This document shows, one piece after another, positions 1,966-64,000 of a stretch of 64,000 bases of DNA (positions within the stretch are counted from its first letter, which is position 1; each line of letters begins with the position of its first letter). Both the position numbers and the translations under genes were made by a program. Location of the stretch: the IMG/VR virus record IMGVR_UViG_3300032212_000001. One strand, 5' to 3'. The notes beneath the pieces are model-generated. The model ran no database searches. It was given only the letters and a program-made list of their open reading frames with translations, and was not told the DNA's origin. Source of the stretch: an uncultured virus (IMG/VR IMGVR_UViG_3300032212_000001) (Duplodnaviria > Heunggongvirae > Uroviricota > Caudoviricetes).

Positions 1966-2005
1966 GCCCCAAGGTGGTTGTGGCTGGTTCGATTCCGGCC
2001 AGGGC
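1963..2005 (+). ncRNA. tRNA-like mini-element, copy 2 of the identical 43-bp repeat
   Basis: exact copy of 1441-1483, again starting at the TAA stop. Confidence 0.5.
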
Positions 2006-2031
2006 TGTTCAAAAATGACAAGGAGAGACAC

Positions 2032-3285
2032 ATGCAAGACATTCCAACAACACGACCCCTGGAACTCAGTAACTTGAGCGACAAGCAGCGCAAAATCCGC
2101 GACAGCTTCAGAGGATCAAAGAGCCAAATTAAGATCCTTGAAGAACTGCGCCAGGGCAAGCAGCCCAAAGAGGGGCGAAGCCTCAAGTCTCTCATCGACA
2201 AAGGGATTGTCTGCCGGAATGAGGATGGTGAAATTCTGGAAAACGCTTTCTGGGCCGAGTTCGATCTGCTCATGGACACCAAGGCGCGCCAACAGCTCGT
2301 CATGCTCTACGACAACGCACCCAAGAGAAAGAATCCTGAGCGCACCCGCCCGCACCAGGACGACCCATTCATAGTCTCCTGTGGCGTCGGCGTTGACAGC
2401 GTAGCTATCCTTGTCGGCCTTGCAAAACTCTACAAGGAAACGGGCAACAGGAAGTTCCGGCCAGACGCCATCCAATTCGCCGACACCCAAGCTGAGAAAC
2501 CCATCACCTACCAATACATCCCTATACTCAATAAATGGCTTCGCCGCCAGGGTTTCCCCTCCCTAACCGTCGTTACCCAAGTGTTCCCCAAGAGCACATA
2601 CACGAGCCCATACGAGAAGATGATCCACAACGAGACCATGCCGTCACCCGCTCTCGGTGGTGGTCACTCCTGCTCACTGTCTTGGAAGGTCGAGCCCATG
2701 AACCGCTGGTGCTCTGGCTACAAAGAGAAACACGCCAAGGCGCGGCTAACAGACGAGCAGCGCGAGGCCAAGGGCGCGTCTGGAACGTGTATGCAGGGCT
2801 GGGAAGGTGGCTGGACTCCCGCTTACCGTTGCTGGGAGCGTGGCGGCAAAGTCCTGAAGGCAATCGGCTACAACGCTGACGAGGCTCATCGTAACTGGTC
2901 TAAGACAGACGACGAGAGCTACCGCTACTGGTATCCCCTCTTAGAGTGGCAATGGGACCGTGAGCGCTGCGAGAAGGAGATCGGAAACGCCGGACTGCCG
3001 GTCCCTCAAAAGTCAGCGTGTTTCTTCTGCCCAGCCAACAAGCCAGAGGAGGTCCGGCTACTCGCCCGTGACTACCCTGAGCTTTTCGAGCAAGCTTTGC
3101 TCATGGAGCGCACAGCCCGCGACGGGAAGCACGGATTTGACACGACCCTGGGGCTTGGCCGAACGTTCTCCTGGGAAGAGGTCGCTTATGACGGTGGGCC
3201 TGTGGCCGAGAGCTTTGGATCGTCGTGCGAAAAGGAATTTACAGGCATTGGAGTTCAAGCTGGACTCTTCAGCTTTGTAGTCTGA
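2032..3285 (+). CDS. PAPS-reductase-like PP-loop (adenine nucleotide alpha hydrolase) protein
   Basis: SCGVGVDS PP-loop, FADTxAE, CSxxWK, IGYNADE, YPLLEW, P.KSACFFCP; start after RBS at 2017. Confidence 0.75.
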   Translation: MQDIPTTRPLELSNLSDKQRKIRDSFRGSKSQIKILEELRQGKQPKEGRSLKSLIDKGIVCRNEDGEILENAFWAEFDLLMDTKARQQLVMLYDNAPKRKNPERTRPHQDDPFIVSCGVGVDSVAILVGLAKLYKETGNRKFRPDAIQFADTQAEKPITYQYIPILNKWLRRQGFPSLTVVTQVFPKSTYTSPYEKMIHNETMPSPALGGGHSCSLSWKVEPMNRWCSGYKEKHAKARLTDEQREAKGASGTCMQGWEGGWTPAYRCWERGGKVLKAIGYNADEAHRNWSKTDDESYRYWYPLLEWQWDRERCEKEIGNAGLPVPQKSACFFCPANKPEEVRLLARDYPELFEQALLMERTARDGKHGFDTTLGLGRTFSWEEVAYDGGPVAESFGSSCEKEFTGIGVQAGLFSFVV

Positions 3286-12195: not shown

Positions 12196-12687
12196 ATGAA
12201 TGAAGACATAGGTTTATTTCACATTGGAGCTGGTGAAACCGAAGTAGACGCGGCTCATCGCATATCTAAATCACTGCCTTCATTGAGAACAGCCATCTTA
12301 AATCAAATAAGTGAGGCTGGTGACAGAGGAATCATTCCAGACGAAGCCTGGGAGTCCATAGTCAAGTGGAGGCCAGGGACGCCTGAACCGTCTGTCAGGC
12401 CAAGATTCAACGAGCTGTGGGAATCAGGTCTCATTCGCCGGAATGGATCGACTCGAAAGAACAGGCGCGAAGGCGAAGAAGAGGTTTGGGTTTCCGGCGT
12501 AGATCCTGTCGCGATCAATCGACGAAAAGCCAAGAGGCGCAATAAAGCACTTTGCATAGGCTGTCTACTCAAAGGCTCGGTAAAGAAACTAAAAGACAAC
12601 GTTTTAGACCTCATCGAAAAAGGTCGTTCGGTGCGCTGCTCTGATTGCGGCTTCACCATGCAACTTAAGGAAGAAAAAGACAAATGA
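12196..12687 (+). CDS. winged-helix DNA-binding protein with Zn ribbon
   Basis: SVRPRFNELWESGLI; CIGC...CSDC. Confidence 0.55.
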   Translation: MNEDIGLFHIGAGETEVDAAHRISKSLPSLRTAILNQISEAGDRGIIPDEAWESIVKWRPGTPEPSVRPRFNELWESGLIRRNGSTRKNRREGEEEVWVSGVDPVAINRRKAKRRNKALCIGCLLKGSVKKLKDNVLDLIEKGRSVRCSDCGFTMQLKEEKDK

Positions 12688-14042
12688 AAGAATGGCCCGT
12701 TCATTACAAAGAAAGACTGGCAATCCAAGACCCTGAAAGCAACGTCGCCGTTTGCTGCCTATGGTCTCCCCAGAAGTCTATAGTGAGGAAGCTCGGAGAC
12801 TGCAAAGTATCAGTGATTGGCAATCTATACTCACTACAAGGAATCAACTACTTAATCAGGAACATTCTGGCAAAGCCAACAATAACACACTTGGTCATCT
12901 GTGGACATGACCTGACTGGATCTGGAGCGGCCCTATGGAGTCTCTTACAAAACCAAGGCAAGCCTGATTTCATTGACAACGGCATTGATATCAAAACTCT
13001 AAATTTAGTGAGAAGAAACGTCACCCCACACTTATTCTTGGAGGGTGGTAGCTTGGGATTCAAGCCTTCTATGATCGAGGCTATGAAAGGTCATTCGGAG
13101 CCCTGGAGCGATCCTATTGAACTGCCAATACCGAGGGCCAAAGCCGAACAACTACCCAGCCATGAGGTTGTAGAGGTTGTTCGCGAGCCTAAGTTCTACG
13201 ATGCATGGCTTCGAGCGCTCAAAACGATCATGGCATTTGGCAACATTTCCCCAACTCAGTATGGAGATCGTCAACGGGAAATCATAAACATGACTATCGT
13301 GACCGACGAGCCCACTGAAGAAGTTGATTTGTCATTATTTGACATAGATCAACACGAGTTCGACTCCTATGTCAACAGCCTTTTGTTTGGAAGGCATGGA
13401 GCCAATGTCTCTTACACATACGGCTCAAGGTTCACCAAGGATTTTGGCATAAATCAACTCAGCGCAATCACTCAAACTCTTCAAGACAACTATGACTCAC
13501 GACGAGCCGTCGCTTGCACATGGAAGGCCAGTAGCGACGGCTTCTCAAAAAACCCACCATGCCTCATCCTGATTCACGCAATGGTCAGGGGAGGGCTCAT
13601 CATGACCTGCTACATAAGAAGCAATGACATGTATCGAGCTTGGCCTCTCAACGCCTTAGCACTGCGCCGCGTTCAAGAAATCATCGCCCAGGACGTAGGA
13701 GTCGCGACTGGCACCTTGACCATCATTTCTGGCTCCGCTCATGTTTACGAGCCATGTTGGATCGAAGCAAACAAGAGAATCGAATCCGACAAATCCAAAT
13801 ACGCTTTCAAAGTAGACCCTCGCGGAAGCTTTGTCATAAAGGTCAAGGAGGGACAAATCATCGTTGAGCACTTCTCCCCAGAGGGCTTGAAATGCTCTGA
13901 GTTCACTGTCAAGCGATCCGCCGATGCAAAGAGAAAGATGATGCCGATGATTTCCTCTGTGGCCCACGCTCTCTATATCGGTCGCGAACTAGAGAGAGCG
14001 CAAAACGCACTCGATCAAGGATTGGAATACAACAACCAATGA
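12684..14042 (+). CDS. thyA: thymidylate synthase family protein with MtrA-like N-terminal and DUF4346-like C-terminal domains
   Basis: YTYG.R, SRRA, PPCL, RSND...AWPLN, SAHVY; N-terminal VAVCCLWS..IGNLYS..GIN; C-terminal DPRG.F...HALYIGREL. Confidence 0.75.
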   Translation: MKEWPVHYKERLAIQDPESNVAVCCLWSPQKSIVRKLGDCKVSVIGNLYSLQGINYLIRNILAKPTITHLVICGHDLTGSGAALWSLLQNQGKPDFIDNGIDIKTLNLVRRNVTPHLFLEGGSLGFKPSMIEAMKGHSEPWSDPIELPIPRAKAEQLPSHEVVEVVREPKFYDAWLRALKTIMAFGNISPTQYGDRQREIINMTIVTDEPTEEVDLSLFDIDQHEFDSYVNSLLFGRHGANVSYTYGSRFTKDFGINQLSAITQTLQDNYDSRRAVACTWKASSDGFSKNPPCLILIHAMVRGGLIMTCYIRSNDMYRAWPLNALALRRVQEIIAQDVGVATGTLTIISGSAHVYEPCWIEANKRIESDKSKYAFKVDPRGSFVIKVKEGQIIVEHFSPEGLKCSEFTVKRSADAKRKMMPMISSVAHALYIGRELERAQNALDQGLEYNNQ

Positions 14043-14179: not shown

Positions 14180-14698
14180 ATGAAAAATGTAAAGAAACGA
14201 AAAAAACGGTCCTATCACGGATCGGAGACACTCCGAAAATACCGAAGTAGAGCCATGAGAGCCAATGACCTGATCCGAGTCATTGCAAGTCATGGTCGCA
14301 GGTTCTTCGCTCAGTGTTCGGACATGAACACTCCCGACAAAGAAATGACTGGACGGATCTCATACTTCGAGGTCAACAATCAAGGCCACATATTCTTTGT
14401 TAATGCCTACAAACTGAGCAGAGTCTATCTCAATAGAGAGAAATACTATTGGAGACATTGGCAGCACGGTGGGACGCTGAAGGATCTCGTTGAAGCTCTG
14501 CGTGATTACATCAAAACCGGGGAGCCAATACCAGGGCACCTTGGCCCACACCCCCAATGGTATTCCCAGGGTGACCCCTGGGGCTACGGCGAAGAATCCA
14601 TGGGTAAGGTTCGAGACGCCGCTGTAAGACTCGGCATTTATCCAAAAGAAAAGAAGAAGGCTGTAATCACAGAAGTCGAGTCAGGAGAAAAAAAATGA
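14180..14698 (+). CDS. phage-type hypothetical protein
   Basis: GACAAGGAGA at 14165; HGRRFF, HGGTLKDLV, WGYG motifs. Confidence 0.65.
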   Translation: MKNVKKRKKRSYHGSETLRKYRSRAMRANDLIRVIASHGRRFFAQCSDMNTPDKEMTGRISYFEVNNQGHIFFVNAYKLSRVYLNREKYYWRHWQHGGTLKDLVEALRDYIKTGEPIPGHLGPHPQWYSQGDPWGYGEESMGKVRDAAVRLGIYPKEKKKAVITEVESGEKK

Positions 14699-15483
14699 AC
14701 ACCCAAGCACTATCGGACACATCGACTGAAGCCTTCATGAAAGGCAATCCCTTCTCCGACGCTTTTGTCAAGCAAGAATACGACTTCTACGGAGTCAGCG
14801 AGAATTATAAAAAGGACGGACTAAGAGTTATCCAGCAAAACGTCATCGGGCGCTGTGACGACTATCTAAACAAGAATTTCAGAGTCGGAATGAAAAGCCT
14901 CGCTCTAATCAAAGAGGGGGATGTTTGGATGTCTCTCACCCCCATGGAAATCGAATCGAACTACCTGCACATTTTCGAGGCAGAGGGTCAGGTTTTCACT
15001 GGTGGCCTTGGACTTGGATACTTCCCCCTTCGCGCAGCGGCCAAAGAGAGCGTTGAGAGCGTTGTTGTATACGAGACCGATAAAAGAGTCATAGACTTCT
15101 TCAAGAGCGCTCACAGCGCTCGCAAGGAGCTTGAGAAGATCGAAATCCGCGAGTCCTGTTGGAGAGAAGCTCTAAGATCGGGTGATATCGAATACCACGA
15201 CTACATTTACAGCGACATCTACCCTTACCTTTGCGATGACGATATTCTCGACGATATAAGGGAGTTTCACAGCTCGTTCCAATTCTTTCGATTCTGGGGA
15301 ATGGAAAAGGTGATTGTTTCGGCAGCAATGTCCTACGGGCACCAAAGCCACCTCCTATCAACATGGGGCAATCTTCGTCCTTACCTAAAGAAGTGGTTGG
15401 ACAACGAAGAGAAAACAAGCCTCTATTACCCGGCCCCTGACGAAGATTACTGTCTAGAAATTACAAAACTCCTCGAAATCTAG
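14695..15483 (+). CDS. spermidine-synthase-like class I SAM-dependent methyltransferase
   Basis: WMSLTPME, GGLGLGY, VVVYE.D..VI. Confidence 0.65.
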   Translation: MNTQALSDTSTEAFMKGNPFSDAFVKQEYDFYGVSENYKKDGLRVIQQNVIGRCDDYLNKNFRVGMKSLALIKEGDVWMSLTPMEIESNYLHIFEAEGQVFTGGLGLGYFPLRAAAKESVESVVVYETDKRVIDFFKSAHSARKELEKIEIRESCWREALRSGDIEYHDYIYSDIYPYLCDDDILDDIREFHSSFQFFRFWGMEKVIVSAAMSYGHQSHLLSTWGNLRPYLKKWLDNEEKTSLYYPAPDEDYCLEITKLLEI

Positions 15484-16727: not shown

Positions 16728-17119
16728 AGAAAAAGGGCAAGGAGAGCGCTGATCTACCAAAGAGGGAGCACGACCAAGGGTGCGATGGCTCTCCATGGGG
16801 TAAAGGCAAGCGATGCAAGTGCTCTTATTACAAAAAGTGCCCAAACTGTCACTACCTTGAAAATGGAGCCAACTCAAGACACTGCGCTCACTGCAATTTC
16901 GAGCTAAGAGGACCAAACAAGAGGGAGCCACAAAAACAATGTGGATCATGCTCTCAAATGTTCATTGATTCGTCTTTCCTAATATCAATACCAATAAGTG
17001 TTTACGAAGATTCAAGAAGTGAATCTAACTTCGTTTCAATCTGCGACAAGTGCGCCCCCGACTGGTTCGAGAAAGTCCAGAAGTTATGGGCGCAATTCAA
17101 AAAGGAGAAAGACCGTTGA
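16724..17119 (+). CDS. multi-Zn-finger protein
   Basis: four CxxC pairs. Confidence 0.6.
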   Translation: MKKKGKESADLPKREHDQGCDGSPWGKGKRCKCSYYKKCPNCHYLENGANSRHCAHCNFELRGPNKREPQKQCGSCSQMFIDSSFLISIPISVYEDSRSESNFVSICDKCAPDWFEKVQKLWAQFKKEKDR

Positions 17120-17748
17120 GTTACAGACCTATTACAGATGTATGGATTTTAGCCCGTGCCAAGCTTCGAGACGGGCACAAGTATTATGGCGCTTACCCAG
17201 CAGGATTCCTTCACAGGGCTCGTCACATGCTCGGCGTTCGACCTTGCGATCCAGTTCTCCACGTTTGCTCAGGGAAAGTTGATAAGAATCTTTACTCGGG
17301 CTTTGGCCCCAATGACAAAACTCTGGATCTCGATCCCGCTCTCAATCCAGATTTCCACATCGATGCCAGAGATATCGGATCAACCAAAGGCTCTTCCTTC
17401 CCGAGATTGGTTGATAACGAAACACACATCTCCCAGGTTTCAAGCAACGAAGAGGGCCAGGACATTGCAAAACTTGGTGAATGGGGTGCGATATTAATCG
17501 ACCGCCCATACACAAGAGAAGACGCCAAACACTATGCGCCGGGTGAAGGTGCGCTGCCGAATCTCAATGATCTTCTAAAGCATAGCCTGTCTATGCTGCC
17601 CATTGGTCGCCGCGTAGGCGTCATTGATTACCTTTGGCCTCACCCTGGCAAATGGGGCAAAGAAGTCGCGGTCATCGGAGTCGGAACAGGACGAAACAAC
17701 AGAGCCCGCTGGTTCACAGTGTTCGAGCGGATAAAAGACCACAGTTAA
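17116..17748 (+). CDS. putative nucleic-acid amino-methyltransferase
   Basis: YYGAYP, VLHVCSG (motif I), DLDP..NPD, IDRPY (DPPY-like); TTG start after AAGGAG. Confidence 0.55.
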   Translation: MSYRPITDVWILARAKLRDGHKYYGAYPAGFLHRARHMLGVRPCDPVLHVCSGKVDKNLYSGFGPNDKTLDLDPALNPDFHIDARDIGSTKGSSFPRLVDNETHISQVSSNEEGQDIAKLGEWGAILIDRPYTREDAKHYAPGEGALPNLNDLLKHSLSMLPIGRRVGVIDYLWPHPGKWGKEVAVIGVGTGRNNRARWFTVFERIKDHS

Positions 17749-25090: not shown

Positions 25091-25663
25091 TTGAAAGAAA
25101 AGAAGGAGAGACTCGTGCTCTACCCTGATGAAATGATTCTGCTTTGTGACTTTGAAACAACTGGTCTTGCCCAGGAAGAGGGCTCAAAAGCGATTCAATT
25201 CGCCGGTCTCTTCCTTCGTCCTGACATGACTATCGAATCCGACTTCAACTATCATATCGACTACAGAGACCTTCAAGACCCTATACCCCTGAACCACATA
25301 CACGGGATCGACAAGAAAACGCTTTCCGAAAAGGGAATGTCCAAAAAGCAAGTCGTAGAGGCCATCCAGAAGAAGCTCATTGGTCTTCATAGAGACGGGG
25401 TGAGAAGGATCTATCTCTCAAGTGACAACAGCTTCTTCGACCAGACCTTTGCCTATAAGCTTGGTTTGATCGGTAAACACTTGCTTCACTACAACCCGCT
25501 TGACTTCAAATGCCTGTGTCGCATGGCTGGTGTGAAAAGACCTGAAAGGTTCAATAAAAAACACTGCGCCATGAACGACACTTTGAACTGGTACAGAAGT
25601 GTCCTGATTTCCTATGACCGACTTAAAATGGCTGTAGAAAAACGACGATTTGAAGCCTCCTAG
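25091..25663 (+). CDS. DEDDh 3'-5' exonuclease (DnaQ-like)
   Basis: DFETTGL, HGI, N..FD, H.AMND. Confidence 0.8.
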   Translation: MKEKKERLVLYPDEMILLCDFETTGLAQEEGSKAIQFAGLFLRPDMTIESDFNYHIDYRDLQDPIPLNHIHGIDKKTLSEKGMSKKQVVEAIQKKLIGLHRDGVRRIYLSSDNSFFDQTFAYKLGLIGKHLLHYNPLDFKCLCRMAGVKRPERFNKKHCAMNDTLNWYRSVLISYDRLKMAVEKRRFEAS

Positions 25664-26805
25664 TTCAATCCAAATCTCTTAATGAAATCAGCCTTGCTCG
25701 CCTTGAAGGTTGGAAGATTCCACAAGACCCAACGAGACAAAGCCCCTGGCGTCGTTGGGTCTTTCCAATTCTCCCGCTTGCTGTGCCTCTTTATGTAGTT
25801 TGCTTTGCGCCCATCGTCCTTGTGCTTTGTGTAATCCGAGTAACCTGCGCCGCCGAAATGAACCTTTTTAACCTTGTTCGTTTTTCGGTTCTCAAATCGC
25901 GCAAGAAGCTTTTTATCCGCCCTGGTGCTCTTCACAATGCCAAGAAGCTTCCACTTTGACTTTTTCTTAAGATTCATCTGAGCCTCTCTTAAAATCTGTT
26001 CGAGCTTCTCTACAAGATCATAGACAGTAGGTCTGAGAGAAGGATCTTTCTTGAGCATACGGAATATAAGATGACGCACTTCGTCGGGGACGTTGCTTGG
26101 AAGATCTATGACGGGCTTGCGCGAGACATGACCAATGATGACCTCTTTGCTAGTGCGACCATCGATAGGCAATCTATTGGTTATCGCGTTGTAATAAGTC
26201 ACTCCAAGAGCATAAATATCGGACTCGTTTAGATAATCACCATTCTTTAAGTATTCTGGAGCTAAGAAATTAAGTGTTCCACAAACCTGATCCTTTTCTT
26301 CTTTTAAGTCCAGATGTGACGACCATGCAAGGCCAAAGTCAATCAAAACAGCCTTGCCTGATTTGTCTACAAGGATATTCTCAGGCTTTATGTCTCTGTG
26401 ATAAACACCCATGTCTTCAAGGTGCGGAAAAGTCTTAGCAATATCGAGAATGATCTTGGTCGCATCAATGTAGTCAATACCAAAACCACAACCGACGATT
26501 TCAGCAAGATTATTTCCATCGATAAGATCCAGGGCAAGATAAACAAAACCTCTATCTGACCCATGGCCGGAATGACCAACGATGTTTTCATGGGAGAGAA
26601 TAGATAGAAGTTTGCTCTCATGATCGAATCGTTCCCTGTTCTCTCCCTCATACGTAATCGCCTTAGCCACTTTCAAAGCAACAAAAGGAGAGTCCTTGTG
26701 ACCAGTATCAACAGCCTTAAACACTGTTGCAAATCCGCCTTTGCCAATCTGGTTTTCAATTCGATATTGACCGACCATTTCCCCAGGCTTTAGTTTGACA
26801 ATCAA
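25660..26805 (-). CDS. Hanks-type Ser/Thr protein kinase with C-terminal DUF5754-like domain
   Basis: GKGGFATV, VALK, HRDIKPEN, DFG, GT..FLAPE, SDIYALG; tail VHFG..GYSDYTKHKD..RK..Y..RH. Confidence 0.85.
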   Translation of the reverse strand: MIVKLKPGEMVGQYRIENQIGKGGFATVFKAVDTGHKDSPFVALKVAKAITYEGENRERFDHESKLLSILSHENIVGHSGHGSDRGFVYLALDLIDGNNLAEIVGCGFGIDYIDATKIILDIAKTFPHLEDMGVYHRDIKPENILVDKSGKAVLIDFGLAWSSHLDLKEEKDQVCGTLNFLAPEYLKNGDYLNESDIYALGVTYYNAITNRLPIDGRTSKEVIIGHVSRKPVIDLPSNVPDEVRHLIFRMLKKDPSLRPTVYDLVEKLEQILREAQMNLKKKSKWKLLGIVKSTRADKKLLARFENRKTNKVKKVHFGGAGYSDYTKHKDDGRKANYIKRHSKRENWKDPTTPGALSRWVLWNLPTFKASKADFIKRFGLN

Positions 26806-50276: not shown

Positions 50277-50757
50277 TTCAATTTTAAGCGGAAACCGTTT
50301 TCCAGATAAGCCAGCGCATCAGTTTAAGACTGCCGGAGCTGGAGTGGCAAAGCAGCCCGTCGCTGCACAAAACGACTATTCGGGTCAGCCCAGGGAAGGT
50401 TCGCCTTTCAACTGTCATGAAGACAAGCTTCCTTGTATCACGACTCAGTGCCCTAAGTGGGTCGAGGTTGAAGGAGAGTCTCTTGAACAATACCCTTATG
50501 GGGGCTATTGTGTTTCAGCAAGCAAAGACGAAGCTGTCGAGGAACTTGCGAAAGACGCAAAGGAAACTCTCAATACGGTCGTCGAAATGTTCACAACTTA
50601 TGCACCGATTGTAAAAACTATGGTAGTAAGTTGGGTCCAGAAGGATATGATGAGCGGCAAAAGTGTTGTTGGAGGTTTTCTCGGTAGATTTACCGAAGGA
50701 AATGACGAAGAGAATGACAGCGAAACCGAGGAGGATAAACCAACCTTCGAGGTTTGA
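50269..50757 (+). CDS. hypothetical protein
   Basis: GGAG RBS, coupling. Confidence 0.65.
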   Translation: MADSILSGNRFPDKPAHQFKTAGAGVAKQPVAAQNDYSGQPREGSPFNCHEDKLPCITTQCPKWVEVEGESLEQYPYGGYCVSASKDEAVEELAKDAKETLNTVVEMFTTYAPIVKTMVVSWVQKDMMSGKSVVGGFLGRFTEGNDEENDSETEEDKPTFEV

Positions 50758-50769
50758 TCGAGGGTTGGT

Positions 50770-51729
50770 GTGCTTTTAGATAGGCGATTTGACGTTTCAT
50801 TGAAGATTGTTCCCCCAGGGAACCAAGCGATCTCACACACCCTTGGTCAGATGGTCGCCTATGCAAAAGACCCACAGACTCTAGTTGAAGCAAGACGCTA
50901 CGCGCTTTACATAACGAAAGGATCTAAATCTCGTTATGAACGTGTGAAGCGTCTTTTTTCTTGGGCTCGCAAAAATGTTGAATATGTCAACGATATACAC
51001 GGTATCGAGCACGTTCAAGATCCGGTCTTTATTCTTGAGAAAGCGTTTTCCAGAAACCCACAAGAGAAAGCCCTCTCGGCTGGTGATTGTGACTGCCATG
51101 CGGTCCTTCTCGCTGTCATGTGCATAAGCCTTGGTATTCCTGCTCGATACACGGTCACAGAGGACAAGAAGAACCCTGGTTCAGCGACAAGGCCGAATTG
51201 GGCTCATGTCCACGCGGAAGCGTTTGCTAATAACGAATGGATTCCAATGGATACTTCGATGTGGTTCGTTGACTACGACCGAAGAGTCCCTGGGCGTCGT
51301 TCTTATATCAAGATTCCCTTTGCTTCTGAGGCGGGGTCTGTTGGTGAAGAGCGCTTCATTCCTTTTGAGAAAAACAAGAATCTTGGTTGGGCTCAAGTGG
51401 TTACGGCTGGTATAAGGTCTGTTGCCGATATCACAAAGGCCCTTATCAATCAGGGTATTGCTAAGGACACTATTGAGGCCCAGGAGCTTGCTCTGAGGCT
51501 TAAGTCTGAAGTTCAGGAGCGTTATCTTACAACAAAGGCAGAACTTGATGCTGAGATCGTGAAGCTTGCTCTCGAAATGAAGAATCGCGATAAATTGGAA
51601 AGAGAATCTGCTGAAAAGTTTCGCAAAAAGAGTCTAACAGATACTATAGTGACTGTGACATTGGCCCTTGGCGCTTTGGGCGCGATTATGTTTTCGGAGG
51701 AGATTAAAAAATTATGGACTACGGAATGA
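50770..51729 (+). CDS. transglutaminase-like cysteine protease with C-terminal TM anchor
   Basis: Y.ND..G.E.VQ.P, GDCDCHAVLLA...LG.PAR, HVHAE, WIPMD (Cys-His-Asp triad). Confidence 0.8.
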   Translation: MLLDRRFDVSLKIVPPGNQAISHTLGQMVAYAKDPQTLVEARRYALYITKGSKSRYERVKRLFSWARKNVEYVNDIHGIEHVQDPVFILEKAFSRNPQEKALSAGDCDCHAVLLAVMCISLGIPARYTVTEDKKNPGSATRPNWAHVHAEAFANNEWIPMDTSMWFVDYDRRVPGRRSYIKIPFASEAGSVGEERFIPFEKNKNLGWAQVVTAGIRSVADITKALINQGIAKDTIEAQELALRLKSEVQERYLTTKAELDAEIVKLALEMKNRDKLERESAEKFRKKSLTDTIVTVTLALGALGAIMFSEEIKKLWTTE

Positions 51730-58177: not shown

Positions 58178-58843
58178 TCAGACCGCTTCCGCTTGGTAGC
58201 TTATTTTCCTATTTTCCTGCTCAACCTTTTCTTCATAAAGCCGTTTTGCAATTGGACACTTATCGGGGGACGTGCCACAAATGGCAACGACTTCTGCATC
58301 CGGGCAAAGTGGCTTTATTTCATTATAGAACCTGTCGAATTGCGGGTTCTTATCGCGCCGCTCTTTATCATCGTCATGATCGAATGAAAAGAAGCAGGGG
58401 CCATGGCCTTCTTTCGCCATGTCGATGATGAGGTAAATCATATCGTAAGACTTTTCAGCCATCACCCCCATGGCTTCCGAGAGGCTTTTGGCGCAATCAT
58501 AGTCAGCGTTGGAGTTGGCGTCGAGCAACAGGGACGATAGAAGATTCTCGTTCGAGGAGAATGGGACGACAAGAATCTTGCGTTTCTTGTTACGGCGAGT
58601 GATGAAAGAAATACGTTTTCTTAGGTCATAAATCCTTGTAATAGATTCATTCATCTCCGTCATTTGAGAGAACGCCATCGTTTTCTTTTTGTTGAGTTCT
58701 TGAAGTCTCTTTATGTCTTCGTCGTCTTCTTCTTCGTAAAAAGATTTGTAGAAGGTGGCTTTTGAGCTTCTTCTTTTTGCTTTGCCTCTTAACCAATCAA
58801 GCATTTCCCTGCGCCTTTCTCTCGGACTCGTCCAGTTTCGCAT
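58178..58843 (-). CDS. degenerate response-regulator receiver domain protein
   Basis: KILVV...AKSLSEAM......YDMIYL.IDM...G...VVAICG. Confidence 0.5.
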   Translation of the reverse strand: MRNWTSPRERRREMLDWLRGKAKRRSSKATFYKSFYEEEDDEDIKRLQELNKKKTMAFSQMTEMNESITRIYDLRKRISFITRRNKKRKILVVPFSSNENLLSSLLLDANSNADYDCAKSLSEAMGVMAEKSYDMIYLIIDMAKEGHGPCFFSFDHDDDKERRDKNPQFDRFYNEIKPLCPDAEVVAICGTSPDKCPIAKRLYEEKVEQENRKISYQAEAV

Positions 58844-59186
58844 TTAGGCGAGTTATGAGAGTCTGAGCATCTTTGAGTGTGTTGTCCATCCTCTTGAGTG
58901 TATCATTGGTTGTCGTAATCATAGCAGTTTGTGGTTCAGCTTGAGCAAGTTGGTCCTTGAGAAGTTTTTTGGATTCTTCTCTAAACTCCCTCTCCAAGCC
59001 TATATATTTGCGAACAAGCCATGCAATAACGAGGCAAGAGATTACGAACAGAACTCCCAGTATAAGGGCAGGGCCACCTTCGATAACACGCTCGACGTAG
59101 CCTATTCCCTCTTCTGGATCTGTTGCAAGCAGGTTTAGCATTAAATTCACCTCGTTTTCGTAGTTGCTATTGTTTGTATCCGACAA
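58797..59186 (-). CDS. single-TM coiled-coil protein (holin-like)
   Basis: GGPALILGVLFV TM followed by heptads. Confidence 0.5.
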   Translation of the reverse strand: MSDTNNSNYENEVNLMLNLLATDPEEGIGYVERVIEGGPALILGVLFVISCLVIAWLVRKYIGLEREFREESKKLLKDQLAQAEPQTAMITTTNDTLKRMDNTLKDAQTLITRLNAKLDESERKAQGNA

Positions 59187-59240: not shown

Positions 59241-60704
59241 GTGCATAACCGTGACGAAAGGAAGTATCGTATCGTGAGCGCAATTTGTCACGTCTGGGAC
59301 GAGAATAAAATGTCTCGATCTCTTCCAAAGATACCCTTTGGAAAGCAAACTCAATCGGCATTTTACATACACAAAACGGTCAAAGAAGACCTTCCTGTCT
59401 TTATTCAAAGGCTCATAGAAAAAGCTGAGAGGAAAGCGTTTTCCCAGATAGGTTTTTACAATGTCATCAAGGTTCATAAGTATGAACCCAGGATATCTTT
59501 TCTTGCCTATCCGAATTTTGATAAGGACGAAACTCCTTCATTGAAACGCTCTGTTGTCGTAAACTTTAGAACCGGCAAGGTTGCGGAGTGGTCCTATGGT
59601 GAACATTCAGAACCACCAATCTTGCACAAGAAACAACTTCTCTTGCAAGGTGAAGCTATGAGAAATCCAACAACAGCCATTGCCAGGAGCGAAAGCTCTA
59701 TGCCCTTCCGTGTCGCCGTCGATAAGAAATTAGTAAGCGCCCCCGCTCTTGACTGGGGTTGCGGAAAGGGCGCTGATGTGCGCTCTCTTAGAGACATGGG
59801 CATTATGACGGCTTGTTACGATCCTGCTTATGCGCCGCGTCTTCCAAAGAAGAAGGGCTTCTATAGCTACGGCCACGCTATCTACGTTGTAAACACGATA
59901 GAAGACTCAAGTGAAAGAACGAGGACTTTGAAAAGATTTCGGAGTCACTTGAAGAAAGGGGCCTCCTGGTTGGTCGCGGTAAGGAGTCGAAGCGCGATAG
60001 AACGGGCTGCGGAAGAGAGCGGTTGGCGTAAACACAAAGACGGTTATCTCACTGGCTCGGGAACATTTCAAAAAGGATACAGCAAAAAAGGTCTCGCGTC
60101 TCTTCTGGCTAAGGTCGGATTCAGTGACTTTGACACCTACAAACAAGGCGATTCGATAATCGCTCATACCCCTGTTAAGAAAAGAAACCCAAGACGAGTT
60201 GAAGTCTCCAATGCTCAACAACGGGAGGCCGGTTCTTCAAGGTCGGTAGAGGTCGAAGAGGTCTTGCCCGAATATGATTGGGCCTTCTTTAGTTCTGACG
60301 ATGATTCTGAAGAGGAAGAGTTGATAAGGAACCCATTGGTTTTAGCTGGAAATCCTAAAAGCACGAAGCGTCTTAATTGTGAACGGATCGAGAGATTCGT
60401 TGAAGAGTGTGTTGGTTGGCTTATTGATGTCCAGGGTATGATTCAGGACGAATCCGGCACCGATATGGCCGAAGTGAATCGGCTCGTTCGATCAGCGAGA
60501 GACACTTTGAGTTCTTCTGTGCCTGATTGCGATGAAAACTTGGAAGTTTTTCATCGGGCCTATCATACGGCTTGTCGAAAAATCGAGAGGGCTATTCGTC
60601 TTGAAAGAGGCGAGTTCCGTGGTCATAAGTCTTTCAAGGCTCTTCGAGAGATCTCAACGGAGATTCATCGTTTCGATAAGTGGATGCATGAACTCCAAAG
60701 TTGA
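59241..60704 (+). CDS. protein resembling the DNA-phosphorothioation-associated putative methyltransferase (TIGR04096-like)
   Basis: ISFLAYPNFD.D..PSL..S....PPILHKK; TAIARS..S.P...LDWGCGKG.DV..L....YDP; YVVNTIED..ER..TL; GTFQK; start may be 59310. Confidence 0.7.
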   Translation: MHNRDERKYRIVSAICHVWDENKMSRSLPKIPFGKQTQSAFYIHKTVKEDLPVFIQRLIEKAERKAFSQIGFYNVIKVHKYEPRISFLAYPNFDKDETPSLKRSVVVNFRTGKVAEWSYGEHSEPPILHKKQLLLQGEAMRNPTTAIARSESSMPFRVAVDKKLVSAPALDWGCGKGADVRSLRDMGIMTACYDPAYAPRLPKKKGFYSYGHAIYVVNTIEDSSERTRTLKRFRSHLKKGASWLVAVRSRSAIERAAEESGWRKHKDGYLTGSGTFQKGYSKKGLASLLAKVGFSDFDTYKQGDSIIAHTPVKKRNPRRVEVSNAQQREAGSSRSVEVEEVLPEYDWAFFSSDDDSEEEELIRNPLVLAGNPKSTKRLNCERIERFVEECVGWLIDVQGMIQDESGTDMAEVNRLVRSARDTLSSSVPDCDENLEVFHRAYHTACRKIERAIRLERGEFRGHKSFKALREISTEIHRFDKWMHELQS

Positions 60705-60716
60705 AGAGGTTCGATC

Positions 60717-63700
60717 ATGGAAGTGAAGTCTGTCGGGAACGTGCGATGTCCAGAAACAGAGCGCGACATTAAGATACATACACCAGCCTCCTGGCCTAAG
60801 ACGGTTCGAGCTTTTGTAGAAGAGTCATTGACCAAGAAAATTCTTGAAGGTTGTCCAGAGACTCAGAGCAGAGTTATTAAAAACCCTGCTGGGCGGCGCA
60901 GGAACCCCGTCAACGTGTCGATCATTACTGACAGGAAGAAAGTCATAGACGCTTTCTTGAAGGGCTCCAAGGAGCTTCATGAGGCCCTGGAGTCTTATGA
61001 GCCGTCGAGGAGTGTGAAGAAAGTCGAGACCATTCTTCAAAAAGCGATTCAGCAAGGGAATCTTGAAAGGCGTGGGTACGAAGTCAAGAAGAAGACTAAG
61101 ACCATAGGAAACGCTAAGTATTTTAGCTTTGCTATCCAGTCTCATGATAGTTCTTTCTTCTGGCTCACCCAGGAAGCGACGAAGGCCGAGAAAAGTGATG
61201 AGGATCACTTGAAAGAACTCAGTGACATACTGAGATACTGGTCTATGCAGAGAAAACTCTCGGGAAATCTTCCGTATCAAGTCAATGAGAAAATAGGAGA
61301 GATTGAGCGCTATTACAGGACTACGAAAAGGGAAGAAATCAAATATTTCATGGATTTCCTTCCGCCCGCTCCAGACTTAACCGATTATCACATCATCGCT
61401 GTCAACACGAGCGCCGGTAAAGACTCCCAGGCAATGATGGATTATGTCGTTGAGCTTGCGAAAGAAGTCGGTGTCATGGATCGCCTGATTTCGGTCCATG
61501 CCGATCTTGGAGAGCTTGAATGGGAGGGGACCAAAGAACTGGCTCTTGACCATACAAAGCACTACAACATGCCTTTTTACACTGTCCAGAGAGACCGGGA
61601 TCTTCTGCATCAGATCGAGCACGAAAGGGAAGACTTCCCTGGTCAGAGTGCCCGATTCTGCACAAGCGAACACAAGACGAGTCAGGTTCAAAAGCTCTAC
61701 ACCCGTTTCTCCGATAAGAAGCTTGCTGACTACTTGACGGATCTTTTGGATCTCGAAGTGGAGAAATGGATTAAGGATTGGCGCGAAGCGGGAAAGAACG
61801 CCAAGGCTGATAAAGCCGCCCTTTGGTTTGAAGGTAAAGATCGCATTACGGCTTTGCGTATGGAACAGGTCGATTTTTCAGAGGGTGAGCTGTCTGTCAA
61901 GGATACTGAAAGGCTTCGCGAATTAAGAGCCGAGGTAGACAAAGAGGCTCTTCGCTTTTTCAACAAGAGCGACTGGAGCAAGATTCGCAAAAGTGCTAAG
62001 GACAAGCTTCCAAGGATGCGTGTTCTTTCATGCTTGGGAATCAGAGCCCTGGAGGGTCATGAGAGGGCTCGCAAGAATCCCTTTGAAACGATTGAAGACA
62101 TCGGTATTCGCCAGACAGAACGCTGGTTTCCTATTTTCCGATGGACTGAAGCTGATGTTTGGAATCGCATTGACAATATGGAAACGCGCTATGCGACTCC
62201 CTACGACCTTGGAATGAGTCGATTGTCTTGTGCCTTCTGTGTCTTCGCAACACTCGATGATTTATTGATTTCTGCGGAACACAATCCAGAGCTACTCGAT
62301 AAGTATGTGGGCTTGGAGGAGCGGCTCGCGGAGAAGCATAAAAAGATGACCTTGAAGAAGCAGGTCTCGGCTGGTGAGAAAGCTTACAAAAAAGCCAAGG
62401 CGAAGGGTCTTTCTGAGAAAGAGGCAGAAGAGTCAAGAGTTTCGGCGATGAAGAACGTTCCGATGCCTCAGTTTAAGACGGATCTTTCAATCAAGGAAGT
62501 GAAGGAGAAGTTCAAAGAGGGCGAGCGCGGTCGTAAGTGGTCGCGTGGGAAGAGAAGGCTTCAAGTCGTTGCTTCAGAGCCACCACCGATCCCCGAGAGC
62601 CTTCAGAAGTTCCCCGAAAAGGTTGTCCACGAGGAACAGGCGGAAGTGGATTTATCATGTGCCCCTGACAAAAATGGTGAAAACCTGCGTGTTGGTGATA
62701 AGGTCACAACTTTGATAGCCGGGGTCAAAGACACAAAAAAAAAGCCTCTAGAGTTTTACGAGTTCGAGATAAAGAGGATCTTCCCTGGGAAGACGGGGCC
62801 ACAGGTCAAACTTTTTTGTTTGGATGCCCCTTCAAAGAACATGACGCTGGCAAGTAATTCGGTGTCAAAGATCAAAGTCCTTGAAGAGACGATAAGCAGC
62901 GGTGAGGTTGATAGCGTGGGCAAAAGCGATTGGTCTATAAAGAAAGACGGCAAGAGTTACACGTTGAGCCGTCCCGAGGGTGTTGTTGCCCCTGATATCC
63001 GATTCAAGAAAGCAGCGCTTTTTCTGTCTGAACAGCTTCAATCATTAGAGATGGACTGGTCTGACTTTCCTTCTAATCCGAGAAGGAAGAAAGAAAAGGC
63101 CCTGGCTCTCATACATCGCGTTCGCCGGGTTCGCGATATCTCTGATATCGACACTATTTTAAGTGATATTGAAAGCGAGAAACCTTCAAGCGAAGCTGAG
63201 ACTCTTAAATTCAAAGTGTCTCCGTCGCTTGTTGAATACATCGACCACTTGGTTCTGGATAGGTATATCGACAAGGATGGCGAGCGATATGACATTGATT
63301 CCGAACAGGAATACCAAGCAGCGGTTTTCCTTCGTGATCGCCTGTATGACGGCGTTCTCGAATTGCCCGCCTATGGCGATGTTCTGGAGTCTGTCTATCA
63401 AATCATTCTCGATTCTCTGAACAGTGATGACGAAGACGGCACGGCACATATCGGTCGAGCTTCACGTTCATTTGACAGCTTGTCTAAAAAGCTCCTGGCT
63501 GCTCAGAGAAAATATAAGGACAAGAAGTATTTCTCAAAGAAGAAAGAGAAAACGTTTTCCATGAGAAGTGATAATGATGCCTTCGTCGGCGGTTCTGTTT
63601 GGAAGCCCAGCGAAGTTCTGGATAGTGTTGGTTTTATACTTGCCGACAAGCAAGGCGTCTTGACGATGATTGCGAAGTCTTCTGGAGGCTTCCTTGTTGG

Positions 63701-64000
63701 ACCTAAAGACTTCAATGATTCTCAGGAAGTGGCTCGTTGGCTTTCGAGCAAAGGTTTTGATCTTTCAACGAAGCATCGCGATTTGGGTTCTGCGGAGCAT
63801 GAAGATCCAGAATACGTCCTTCGCTATCTTGGTAATCATGACTACGACGAAGCCGTTGCTCTTGTTGATAGGCAATACAAGATTCACTTGGACAATGTGA
63901 AGGCCGATAACAGATCGGACAATCATCTTCTCTGGGAAGGAATGAACGTTTGCGAGGACCAAACCAATAGAGACGCTGTTGTTGTCAGCTTCGATGAAGA
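60717..64000 (+). CDS. giant multidomain protein (>1090 aa, runs off the window) containing a PAPS-reductase/DndC-like PP-loop domain
   Basis: no stop from ATG 60717 (GAGG RBS) to the window end; NTSAGKDSQAM, HADLG, RFCTSEHK, LGIRA.E, PIF.W...DVW, RLSCAFC. Confidence 0.8.
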   Translation, partial: MEVKSVGNVRCPETERDIKIHTPASWPKTVRAFVEESLTKKILEGCPETQSRVIKNPAGRRRNPVNVSIITDRKKVIDAFLKGSKELHEALESYEPSRSVKKVETILQKAIQQGNLERRGYEVKKKTKTIGNAKYFSFAIQSHDSSFFWLTQEATKAEKSDEDHLKELSDILRYWSMQRKLSGNLPYQVNEKIGEIERYYRTTKREEIKYFMDFLPPAPDLTDYHIIAVNTSAGKDSQAMMDYVVELAKEVGVMDRLISVHADLGELEWEGTKELALDHTKHYNMPFYTVQRDRDLLHQIEHEREDFPGQSARFCTSEHKTSQVQKLYTRFSDKKLADYLTDLLDLEVEKWIKDWREAGKNAKADKAALWFEGKDRITALRMEQVDFSEGELSVKDTERLRELRAEVDKEALRFFNKSDWSKIRKSAKDKLPRMRVLSCLGIRALEGHERARKNPFETIEDIGIRQTERWFPIFRWTEADVWNRIDNMETRYATPYDLGMSRLSCAFCVFATLDDLLISAEHNPELLDKYVGLEERLAEKHKKMTLKKQVSAGEKAYKKAKAKGLSEKEAEESRVSAMKNVPMPQFKTDLSIKEVKEKFKEGERGRKWSRGKRRLQVVASEPPPIPESLQKFPEKVVHEEQAEVDLSCAPDKNGENLRVGDKVTTLIAGVKDTKKKPLEFYEFEIKRIFPGKTGPQVKLFCLDAPSKNMTLASNSVSKIKVLEETISSGEVDSVGKSDWSIKKDGKSYTLSRPEGVVAPDIRFKKAALFLSEQLQSLEMDWSDFPSNPRRKKEKALALIHRVRRVRDISDIDTILSDIESEKPSSEAETLKFKVSPSLVEYIDHLVLDRYIDKDGERYDIDSEQEYQAAVFLRDRLYDGVLELPAYGDVLESVYQIILDSLNSDDEDGTAHIGRASRSFDSLSKKLLAAQRKYKDKKYFSKKKEKTFSMRSDNDAFVGGSVWKPSEVLDSVGFILADKQGVLTMIAKSSGGFLVGPKDFNDSQEVARWLSSKGFDLSTKHRDLGSAEHEDPEYVLRYLGNHDYDEAVALVDRQYKIHLDNVKADNRSDNHLLWEGMNVCEDQTNRDAVVVSFDE

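What the first reader, a model, noticed from the sequence alone, without database searches (positions are those of the whole stretch)
59241..64000. Dnd-associated-type methyltransferase next to a giant protein with a DndC/PAPS-reductase-like domain
Seen: adjacent, co-oriented genes 12 bp apart. The first has both signature parts of the methyltransferase family found beside dnd loci. The second (missed by the ORF track) has SAGKDS...RFCTS..K...GIRA.E...RLSCAFC with a helical insertion of about 100 aa, within a >1090-aa multidomain chain. Known: DndC is a PAPS-reductase-family enzyme of DNA phosphorothioation, and phage polyvalent proteins carry anti-defence enzymes. Inference: a virus-borne, possibly virion-delivered DNA-modification or anti-Dnd module. 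No dndA/B/D/E is seen, so a full PT pathway is not claimed.
Basis: partly seen in the sequence, partly recalled or inferred. Interest (0 to 1): 0.7.

Follow-up and report, generated by a model that had tools for sequence, protein, structure and literature searches.

The report
Viral giant protein with PAPS-reductase-like enzyme
An uncultured virus encodes a 3,504-residue patchwork protein with an iron-sulfur, ATP-using enzyme module next to a cut-down methyltransferase; both look like separately acquired counter-defence tools, probably carried in the particle and clipped at repeated linker motifs, not a conserved DNA-sulfur-modification pair.

Summary
Two co-oriented ORFs lie 12 bp apart, and the second is the first 1,094 residues of a 3,504-aa protein on a 124-kb contig. 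The interpretation needs correcting.

The PP-loop domain is not DndC. It belongs to a large phage/mobile-element 'PAPS reductase' clade (PHROG 424, Gilgamesh gp116). That clade is separate from DndC and SspD, has three conserved cysteines and lacks the CysH catalytic tail. It is repeatedly fused into polyvalent proteins (14 of 17 long homologues carry polyvalent domains).

The methyltransferase is a chimera. A TIGR04096 accessory domain is joined to a core that groups with solo viral methyltransferases, and it scores just under the family cut-off.

The pairing is not conserved: 0 of 160 loci and 0 of 50 virus records.

In the methyltransferase, two sites lie exactly at disordered domain borders.

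Best reading: separately recruited counter-defence enzymes, likely packaged and processed. The PP-loop/[4Fe-4S] module probably modifies DNA or jams host phosphorothioate systems, as a Vibrio phage PAPS-Dam fusion does. Substrates, cleavage and packaging are all untested. New variant of a known kind.

The parts
59241..60704 (+). Chimeric class I SAM methyltransferase gene (487 aa from GTG; true start probably 59274 or 59310)
59310..59654 (+). TIGR04096 accessory domain (YPxFD...P.LH(R/K)K motif); function unknown; 32-40% identical to the copies in long dnd/ssp-linked MTases
   Evidence: folded in the model
59661..59669 (+). R-N-P linker 1; replaces a ~70-aa segment of the long form, exactly between the accessory domain and the MTase core; model pLDDT under 50
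59673..60173 (+). Rossmann MTase core (TAIAR, DWGCGKG, YVVNTIE, GTFQKG); no NPPY-type motif; groups with solo viral MTases
60183..60191 (+). R-N-P linker 2 (KKRNP), directly after the MTase fold ends; low pLDDT
60327..60356 (+). Two more NP sites (IRNP, AGNP) after an acidic spacer
60357..60701 (+). C-terminal segment of the MTase protein; no family hit
60705..60716 (+). 12-bp spacer with a GAAGAGG ribosome-binding-like site
60717..64000 (+). First 1094 aa of a 3504-aa patchwork protein (P0001); no recognised domain other than the PP-loop module
60879..60908 (+). KNPAGRRRNP: double basic-NP motif closing a 60-aa leader
61371..62381 (+). PP-loop 'PAPS reductase'-fold domain of the phage/mobile-element clade (PHROG 424), with Cys315, Cys505 and Cys508
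61410..61427 (+). PP-loop SAGKDS (ATP pyrophosphatase motif)
   Evidence: S, G, K, D, S each in 69 of 70 rows
61677..62036 (+). Helical insertion (120 aa against a median of 30 in homologues)
62220..62240 (+). RLSCAFC: CxxC pair, with both cysteines in 70 of 70 rows
63072..63092 (+). SNPRRKK candidate linker motif

Best explanation
These are two separately recruited counter-defence cargo proteins of a large uncultured virus, built from modules strung on basic-Asn-Pro linkers. Step 1 (shown): the giant protein holds an intact PP-loop enzyme of the phage 'PAPS reductase' clade with three conserved cysteines. Step 2 (inferred from family chemistry): it binds a [4Fe-4S] cluster, adenylates a nucleic-acid or nucleotide substrate and transfers sulfur, as DndC, SspD and TtuA do; it does not reduce sulfate. 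Step 3 (inferred): it shields incoming viral DNA from, or jams, host restriction or phosphorothioate-based defence, using host sulfur supply; it does not form a full PT pathway. Step 4 (inferred): the proteins are late products loaded into the particle and clipped or sorted at the NP linkers so the modules act at entry. The MTase is a second, independent tool: a solo viral-type core that gained the accessory domain of dnd/ssp-linked MTases. The two genes are neighbours because both sit in this cargo block, not because they form a fixed pair.
For: PP-loop and three cysteines are nearly invariant; the fold is confident (pLDDT 87.7) and matches PAPS/APS reductases, FAD synthase, TilS and the TtuA/NcsA thiolases. 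The clade is separate from DndC and SspD at 99% SH-aLRT. No ECG(L/I)H tail in 70 of 70 rows. 14 of 17 long homologues carry InPase, ddrB-ParB, ART-PolyVal or LPD1. Of 11 viral loci scanned, 3 have a portal gene nearby and 2 a DarB-like N6-MTase/SNF2 protein. Among 150 of 154 neighbours of solo clade genes, 18 had a Pfam hit, 5 of them ArdA, ArdC or DNA methylases and none a desulfurase or sulfate-assimilation gene. Precedent: acquiring two genes, one a PAPS-Dam fusion, made a Vibrio phage Dnd-resistant (10.1101/2021.05.05.442762, passages). [RK]NP: 8 sites against 1.66 expected after background correction, p 3e-4; NP is the top dipeptide and RNP the top tripeptide; two MTase sites lie in low-pLDDT borders.
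Against: No activity, cleavage or packaging was measured. P0001 has no catalogued polyvalent domain, and its 2,900 residues outside the PP-loop domain match nothing held here. NP enrichment in P0001 alone is weak (13 against 8.9, p 0.12; [RK]NP 5 against 1.45, p 0.016), the motif was chosen after seeing it, and two sites (454, 523) lie inside the folded domain. Whether the Vibrio anti-Dnd PAPS domain belongs to this clade was not established; that phage was not among the 60 listed of 82 hits. No capsid gene was identified in the window, and no close viral relative was found. The MTase fold resembles small-molecule and tRNA MTases more than DNA MTases.
Confidence: 0.5

Rival explanations
1. A coupled two-enzyme module: the MTase and the PP-loop enzyme work together, for example thiolation followed by methylation, or jointly mimicking the host dnd/ssp locus. 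The pair would be specific to this virus lineage.
For: Adjacent, co-oriented and 12 bp apart. Long TIGR04096 MTases really do sit beside DndC- or SspD-like genes (21 of 80 metagenome loci; 2 of 32 viral loci). Only this protein, among the solo-type cores, carries their accessory domain. An AU test does not reject its core being sister to the long forms (p 0.35). The Vibrio anti-Dnd protein fuses a PAPS domain to a methylase.
Against: 0 of 80 viral and 0 of 80 genome loci of the clade have this MTase in the DNA held; 0 of 50 whole virus records (control 5 of 5). Of 32 MTase-bearing virus records, 1 matches the PAPS profile and that is a true DndC. The core lies on the solo side of a 100/100 branch. 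No close relative of this virus was available, so a lineage-restricted pair cannot be excluded.
Confidence: 0.15
2. The enzymes modify something other than viral DNA: host tRNA or rRNA (thiolation, methylation), a signalling nucleotide or cofactor, or a defence protein, as host-takeover effectors delivered at entry.
For: The best structural neighbours of the PP-loop model include FAD synthase, TilS/MesJ, TtuA, NcsA and Cap9, all at similar Z of 12-15. The MTase model's neighbours are small-molecule MTases, Trm9 and METTL6; some atlas clusters carry Bmt2. No P-loop ATPase partner, which known PT systems need (PMC12914056 passages), is seen beside the gene in the window.
Against: Homologues are fused to or lie beside C5 and N6 DNA methylases, Mom-like, ArdA and ArdC proteins. 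The C...CxxC spacing matches DndC and SspD.
Confidence: 0.2
3. An auxiliary metabolic gene: a real PAPS/APS reductase (CysH) that boosts host sulfate assimilation, as phage PAPS reductases are often annotated.
For: CysH is the top Foldseek hit (E 1.5e-4). Papers routinely read phage PAPS reductases this way (passages).
Against: No ECG(L/I)H tail in 0 of 70 rows carrying it (the motif's catalytic role is recalled). CysH models score far below cut-off (13 bits against 154). Fusion into a 3,504-aa protein and into polyvalent proteins makes no metabolic sense. No sulfate-pathway neighbours.
Confidence: 0.05
4. The giant protein is mainly structural (core, membrane or DNA-condensing), and the NP motifs are turn or capping preferences or DNA-binding basic patches rather than processing sites. 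The enzyme modules are passengers.
For: NP is about twice over-represented in unrelated proteins generally. Most of P0001 has no enzymatic match. Many sites are flanked by Lys/Arg runs.
Against: Catalytic motifs are fully intact. In the MTase the motifs fall exactly at both domain borders, and one replaces a ~70-aa homologous segment.
Confidence: 0.1

Closest known systems
Phage 'PAPS reductase' clade PHROG 424 (Streptomyces phage Gilgamesh gp116, Pseudomonas phages Dolphis and Jeremy)
   Same: Same PP-loop, CT(S)..K, G.R..E and RLSCxFC motifs. Best matched segments are about 45-55% identical to metagenomic members; clade member P0029 is 52% identical to gp116.
   Different: Here it is embedded in a 3504-aa protein, has a ~90-aa extra helical insert and sits among NP linkers. 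It groups with solo members rather than with the tailed-phage polyvalent group, suggesting separate recruitment (support 87-92, unstarred).
Polyvalent proteins of phages and conjugative elements (Iyer et al. 2017, PMC5512222)
   Same: Giant multidomain viral protein; 14 of 17 long homologues of the domain carry InPase, ddrB-ParB, ART-PolyVal or LPD1; portal-linked in 3 of 11 loci.
   Different: P0001 itself has none of the catalogued domains. The paper's main text has 0 occurrences of 'PAPS', 'DndC', 'PP-loop', 'sulfur', 'tailless' or 'jelly'; its supplementary files were not seen.
Vibrio phage P5a-red anti-Dnd PAPS-Dam fusion p0018 (Piel et al., bioRxiv 10.1101/2021.05.05.442762)
   Same: A phage PAPS-family domain linked to a methyltransferase, with no other dnd genes described; the closest functional precedent.
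   Different: There it is one 479-aa protein with a Dam adenine methylase. Here the genes are separate, the MTase is of another family, and membership of the same PAPS clade was not shown.
DndC / SspD / BrxP of DNA phosphorothioation
   Same: PP-loop fold and a C...CxxC cysteine set; weak BrxP (E 2e-10) and SspD (E 1e-5) model hits.
   Different: No DndC model hit, separate clade, no significant BLAST match to a true DndC, and no DndD/SspC ATPase or desulfurase seen in the window.
TIGR04096 DNA phosphorothioation-associated putative methyltransferase
   Same: Accessory domain plus MTase core, in the order of the N-terminal half of the ~650-720-aa long form.
   Different: 146 bits, under the 150 cut-off. 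Lacks the middle helical region and the C-terminal accessory copy. The core groups with 150-200-aa solo MTases, mostly viral.

Membership tests
DndC | Score over TIGR03183 or PADLOC DndC models | tested here: not met
   No hit; control L090 scores 698 bits
DndC | Falls in the DndC clade | tested here: not met
   Separate 40-row clade against 13 DndC-like and 9 SspD-like rows, each 99% SH-aLRT; quick tree with a long-branch warning
DndC/SspD/BrxP PT systems | Linked P-loop ATPase (DndD/SspC/BrxC) and cysteine desulfurase | tested here: inconclusive
   None among the window ORFs scanned; about 60 kb of the contig is not visible
DndC/SspD/TtuA-type sulfur transferases | PP-loop plus three conserved cysteines for a [4Fe-4S] cluster | tested here: met
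   SAGKDS; C315 in 69 of 70, C505 and C508 in 70 of 70; cluster binding itself not tested
DndC/SspD/BrxP PT systems | Produces phosphorothioate in DNA | not testable with these tools
   Needs iodine cleavage or LC-MS
CysH (assimilatory PAPS/APS reductase) | C-terminal ECG(L/I)H catalytic motif (recalled) and score over CysH models | tested here: not met
   0 of 70 rows and none in P0001; PRK02090 13 bits against 154
Phage PAPS-reductase-like clade (PHROG 424) | Profile match and placement among clade members | tested here: met
   E 4e-29; nests among solo members
TIGR04096 dnd_rel_methyl | Score at or over the curated cut-off (150 bits) | tested here: not met
   146.2 bits; true members score 289-627
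TIGR04096 dnd_rel_methyl | MTase core plus accessory domain | tested here: met
   Both present; the middle region and C-terminal copy are absent
TIGR04096 dnd_rel_methyl | Core groups with long dnd/ssp-linked members | tested here: inconclusive
   On the solo side of a 100/100 branch, but a sister position is not rejected (AU p 0.35)
DNA amino-methyltransferases (Dam, DarB type) | [NDS]PP[YFW] catalytic motif | tested here: not met
   Absent; YVVNTIE at that position
Polyvalent proteins | Large protein with several conflict-related domains | tested here: inconclusive
   3504 aa, but only one domain recognised; homologues qualify
Polyvalent proteins | Packaged and delivered with the DNA | not testable with these tools
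   Indirect only: late-looking gene block here; portal linkage of homologues
Double jelly-roll (tailless) prokaryotic viruses | DJR major capsid protein and packaging ATPase | tested here: inconclusive
   None found in the window, and no tailed-phage head or terminase gene either. A transglutaminase and small Gly-rich proteins with hydrophobic tails occur in similar order in L113, ahead of a candidate capsid gene judged by a recalled motif with no HMM or PDB support

The most novel reading that the evidence does not exclude
A large, probably tailless virus packages a protease-cleavable, NP-linked enzyme kit. Its [4Fe-4S] PP-loop module puts sulfur on incoming viral DNA without the DndD/SspC ATPase, and the neighbouring MTase, steered by the accessory domain of dnd/ssp-linked MTases, methylates the new sulfur or the marked site. 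This would give an unreported DNA modification and a first function for both the phage 'PAPS reductase' clade and TIGR04096.
Probability: 0.08. Interest if true: 0.85.

Novelty: new variant of a known kind. Interest (0 to 1): 0.48.

Why it matters
Phage 'PAPS reductases' are widely counted as sulfur-metabolism genes. Finding this clade inside giant cargo-type proteins, without the CysH catalytic tail and beside anti-restriction genes, argues that they are counter-defence or nucleic-acid-modifying enzymes. The question is directly testable in a cultured phage: Gilgamesh gp116 is in the same clade, and its host, S. lividans 1326, is a phosphorothioate strain. The NP linkers point to a processing or packaging signal for enzyme cargo in a poorly known virus group. 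The specific MTase-PAPS pair, though, is a one-off in the data searched.

Tried and rejected
No whole genome is held for this window. Single-sequence scans found no relatives of the giant protein, the MTase or the transglutaminase in viral contigs, or of P0001 in metagenome contigs, so the other ~60 kb of the contig and any capsid gene could not be seen.

Residues 600-3504 of P0001 matched nothing among the proteins and loci held, in Pfam, PHROGs or the PDB, and BLAST found no internal repeat at E under 0.05.

Rejected: DndC identity; a conserved MTase-PAPS pair; a duplication from the window's other PAPS-family gene at 1978-3285 (24% identity over 108 aa, separate branch).

No RNA holder was listed. 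The promoter/terminator scan was at chance level: 3 against 4.4 and 6 against 3.8. The accessory domain's fold was barely tested, because the MTase core filled the hit lists. The atlas search for the 48594 protein gave only sub-threshold leads, and it shows no similarity to the positional counterpart in L113. No complex prediction was run, since no binding is claimed.

Ten paper searches listed no paper that, by title or abstract opening, describes PAPS-reductase domains in polyvalent proteins, an NP linker motif in such viruses, or a function for TIGR04096. The library lacks most subscription papers, and supplements were not read.
Full report
OBSERVATION. The window has a + strand ORF at 59241-60704 (487 aa from GTG) and, 12 bp on, an ORF from ATG 60717 that runs off the end after 1094 codons. 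A GAAGAGG site precedes the second start. The protein database holds the full product, P0001, 3504 aa, 100% identical over the window part, on a 124,372-bp contig. Only one public run, X1 (a microbial mat metagenome), holds the stretch. There it is one contig with no differences, but X1 may be the source of this DNA.

GENOME CONTEXT. The window looks viral. It encodes a serine recombinase, a prim-pol, SNF2 and DEAD-box helicases, a thymidylate-synthase-like fusion, two other methyltransferases, a Ser/Thr kinase and a second PAPS-family gene. From about 48.6 kb there is a block with a transglutaminase-like protein and small Gly-rich proteins with hydrophobic C-termini. No terminase, portal or capsid gene was recognised. 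One distant transglutaminase relative in IMG/VR (L113, 31% identity) shows a similar gene order, followed by a gene I take for a jelly-roll capsid protein from a recalled motif; no HMM or PDB match backs this. A tailless double-jelly-roll virus is therefore a lead, not a result.

THE PP-LOOP DOMAIN. Residues ~219-555 match PF01507 (E 2.7e-12) and phrog_424 (E 4e-29) but no DndC model. A control DndC scores 698 bits, and BLAST against it is not significant. There are 1475 cluster representatives at E up to 0.001, and 22 of the 150 listed exceed 800 aa. In a 70-row alignment the PP-loop residues and C315 are kept in 69 rows and C505 and C508 in all 70. The spacer between the CT..K and GIR motifs is 120 aa against a median of 30. 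No row has an ECG(L/I)H tail. The AlphaFold model (pLDDT 87.7) matches CysH and TtuA by Foldseek. By VIA-align it matches FAD synthase, MesJ/TilS, CysD, APS reductase and NcsA at similar Z of 13-15, so the fold does not name the substrate. A 63-row quick tree separates three groups at 99% SH-aLRT: DndC-like (13), SspD-like (9, three checked against PADLOC) and this clade (40), with a long-branch warning. The closest cultured relatives include Streptomyces phage Gilgamesh gp116.

COMPANY THE CLADE KEEPS. Of 17 long homologues, 14 carry InPase, ddrB-ParB, ART-PolyVal or LPD1, one carries a C5 methylase and two have nothing else recognised. In 80 viral loci, 15 have the domain in an open frame of 800 aa or more (some are near-duplicates). 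I scanned 40 selected proteins from 11 of these loci: 3 loci have a portal gene nearby, 2 a DarB-like N6-MTase/SNF2 protein, and 9 have SNF2 or polyvalent-type domains. For solo genes I scanned 150 of 154 neighbours from 56 loci; 18 had a Pfam hit, including ArdA, ArdC-MPTase, two C5 methylases and a DAM-like/GNAT protein, and none was a desulfurase or sulfate-pathway gene. P0001 itself shows no second known domain.

THE METHYLTRANSFERASE. It scores 146.2 bits on TIGR04096 (cut-off 150). It consists of the family's accessory domain followed by the Rossmann core, as in the N-terminal half of the long form, without the middle helical part or the C-terminal accessory copy. The model has two folded domains. 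The core matches class I small-molecule and tRNA MTases (Z up to 17.6) and has no NPPY-type motif. In trees the core falls with 150-200-aa solo MTases, mostly viral, across a 100/100 branch from the long forms, although a sister position is not rejected (AU p 0.35). The long forms do lie beside DndC- or SspD-like genes (21 of 80 metagenome loci, many of them short). None of those neighbours belongs to the window's PP-loop clade.

IS THE PAIR CONSERVED? No. 0 of 80 viral and 0 of 80 genome loci of the clade hold this MTase family in the DNA fetched; 57 and 54 of them are 15 kb or longer. 0 of 50 whole virus records match TIGR04096 (50 of the 80 were searched), while a positive control rang in 5 of 5. 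Of 32 MTase-bearing virus records, 1 matches the PAPS profile, and that gene is a true DndC. No close relative of this virus was found, so a lineage-limited pair is not excluded.

Asn-Pro is the most enriched dipeptide and RNP the most enriched tripeptide in the two proteins. [RK]NP occurs 8 times against 1.66 expected after correcting for the general excess in 28 other large proteins (p 3e-4; the motif was picked after seeing it). It is also enriched in ORFs from 45 to 59 kb (6 against 1.0 raw) but barely before 45 kb (5 against 3.2). In the MTase, one RNP replaces the ~70-aa segment between accessory domain and core, and another follows the last strand. Both lie in low-confidence stretches of the model. 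Against this, NP in P0001 alone is not significant (13 against 8.9), and sites 454 and 523 are inside the folded domain. An earlier scan note (e1-5992750) reports a similar motif in large jelly-roll viruses; it is an unchecked AI note and not independent support.

MECHANISM. Shown: an intact PP-loop with three conserved cysteines; a clade distinct from DndC, SspD and CysH; recurrent fusion into polyvalent proteins; a chimeric MTase; NP motifs at MTase domain borders; no conserved pairing. Inferred: a [4Fe-4S] cluster and adenylation-driven sulfur transfer, by analogy with DndC and SspD and the RNA thiolases named in PMC12914056 (passages); a counter-defence role, by analogy with the Vibrio phage whose PAPS-Dam gene pair conferred escape from Dnd (10.1101/2021.05.05.442762, passages; also cited in PMC13551039, passages); and packaging with processing at NP. 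I put this reading at 0.5, a non-DNA target at 0.2, a coupled two-enzyme module at 0.15, structural passenger at 0.1 and sulfate metabolism at 0.05.

LITERATURE SEEN. Only term-search passages were read, no whole texts or supplements: PMC5512222 (0 occurrences of PAPS, DndC, PP-loop or sulfur in the main text), PMC7824862 (0 for PAPS), PMC5894146 (0 for transglutaminase or PAPS), PMC10853773, PMC11437467, PMC8879888, 10.1101/2021.07.29.453957 (66), 10.64898/2026.02.18.706556 (106) and PMC12839542. The supplementary architecture files of the polyvalent-protein paper could list this domain.

VERDICT. A real and unusual locus, but a variant of known themes: phage PAPS-family counter-defence enzymes and polyvalent cargo proteins. 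The additions are the non-DndC clade assignment, the chimeric MTase, the NP-linked architecture and a ready test in phage Gilgamesh. Interest 0.48.

Noticed in passing
window 1978-3285 (+): A second PAPS-family gene of a different clade (phrog_424 E 1.4e-24, weak SspD hit, atypical PP-loop SCGVGVDS, CFFC). The virus carries two unrelated PP-loop enzymes.
   Followed up: partly
window 12684-14042, 14695-15483, 17050-17748 (+): A thymidylate-synthase-like protein fused to MtrA-like and PterinBD-DUF4346 domains, plus two further methyltransferases: a possible base-modification set.
   Followed up: no
window 50770-51729 (+): Transglutaminase-like protein (GDCDCH) with a hydrophobic C-terminus, among small Gly-rich proteins with LG motifs; a candidate maturation protease. 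Only two other homologues were found.
   Followed up: partly
window 25660-26805 (-): Ser/Thr protein kinase with a DUF5754 domain.
   Followed up: no
window 50329-50349 and 58414-58434: One 6.6-kb high-depth contig of run X1 has two 21-nt near-matches (one mismatch each) to the window. Its flanks do not resemble each other, so there is no sign of a CRISPR repeat; it may be chance.
   Followed up: no
L087:9722-10564: A related solo-type MTase sits behind a YGYGGYYGYGG linker in a virus whose neighbouring genes start with M-x-F/W-G motifs: possibly a parallel case of motif-tagged enzyme cargo.
   Followed up: partly
L199:4839-7611 (phage Gilgamesh): gp116, of the same PP-loop clade, lies two genes from a queuine tRNA-ribosyltransferase-like gene; the host is S. 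lividans 1326.
   Followed up: no
window 58178-59186 (-): Two antisense genes (a receiver-like domain, weak E 0.026, and a small membrane/coiled-coil protein) interrupt the + strand block just upstream of the MTase.
   Followed up: no
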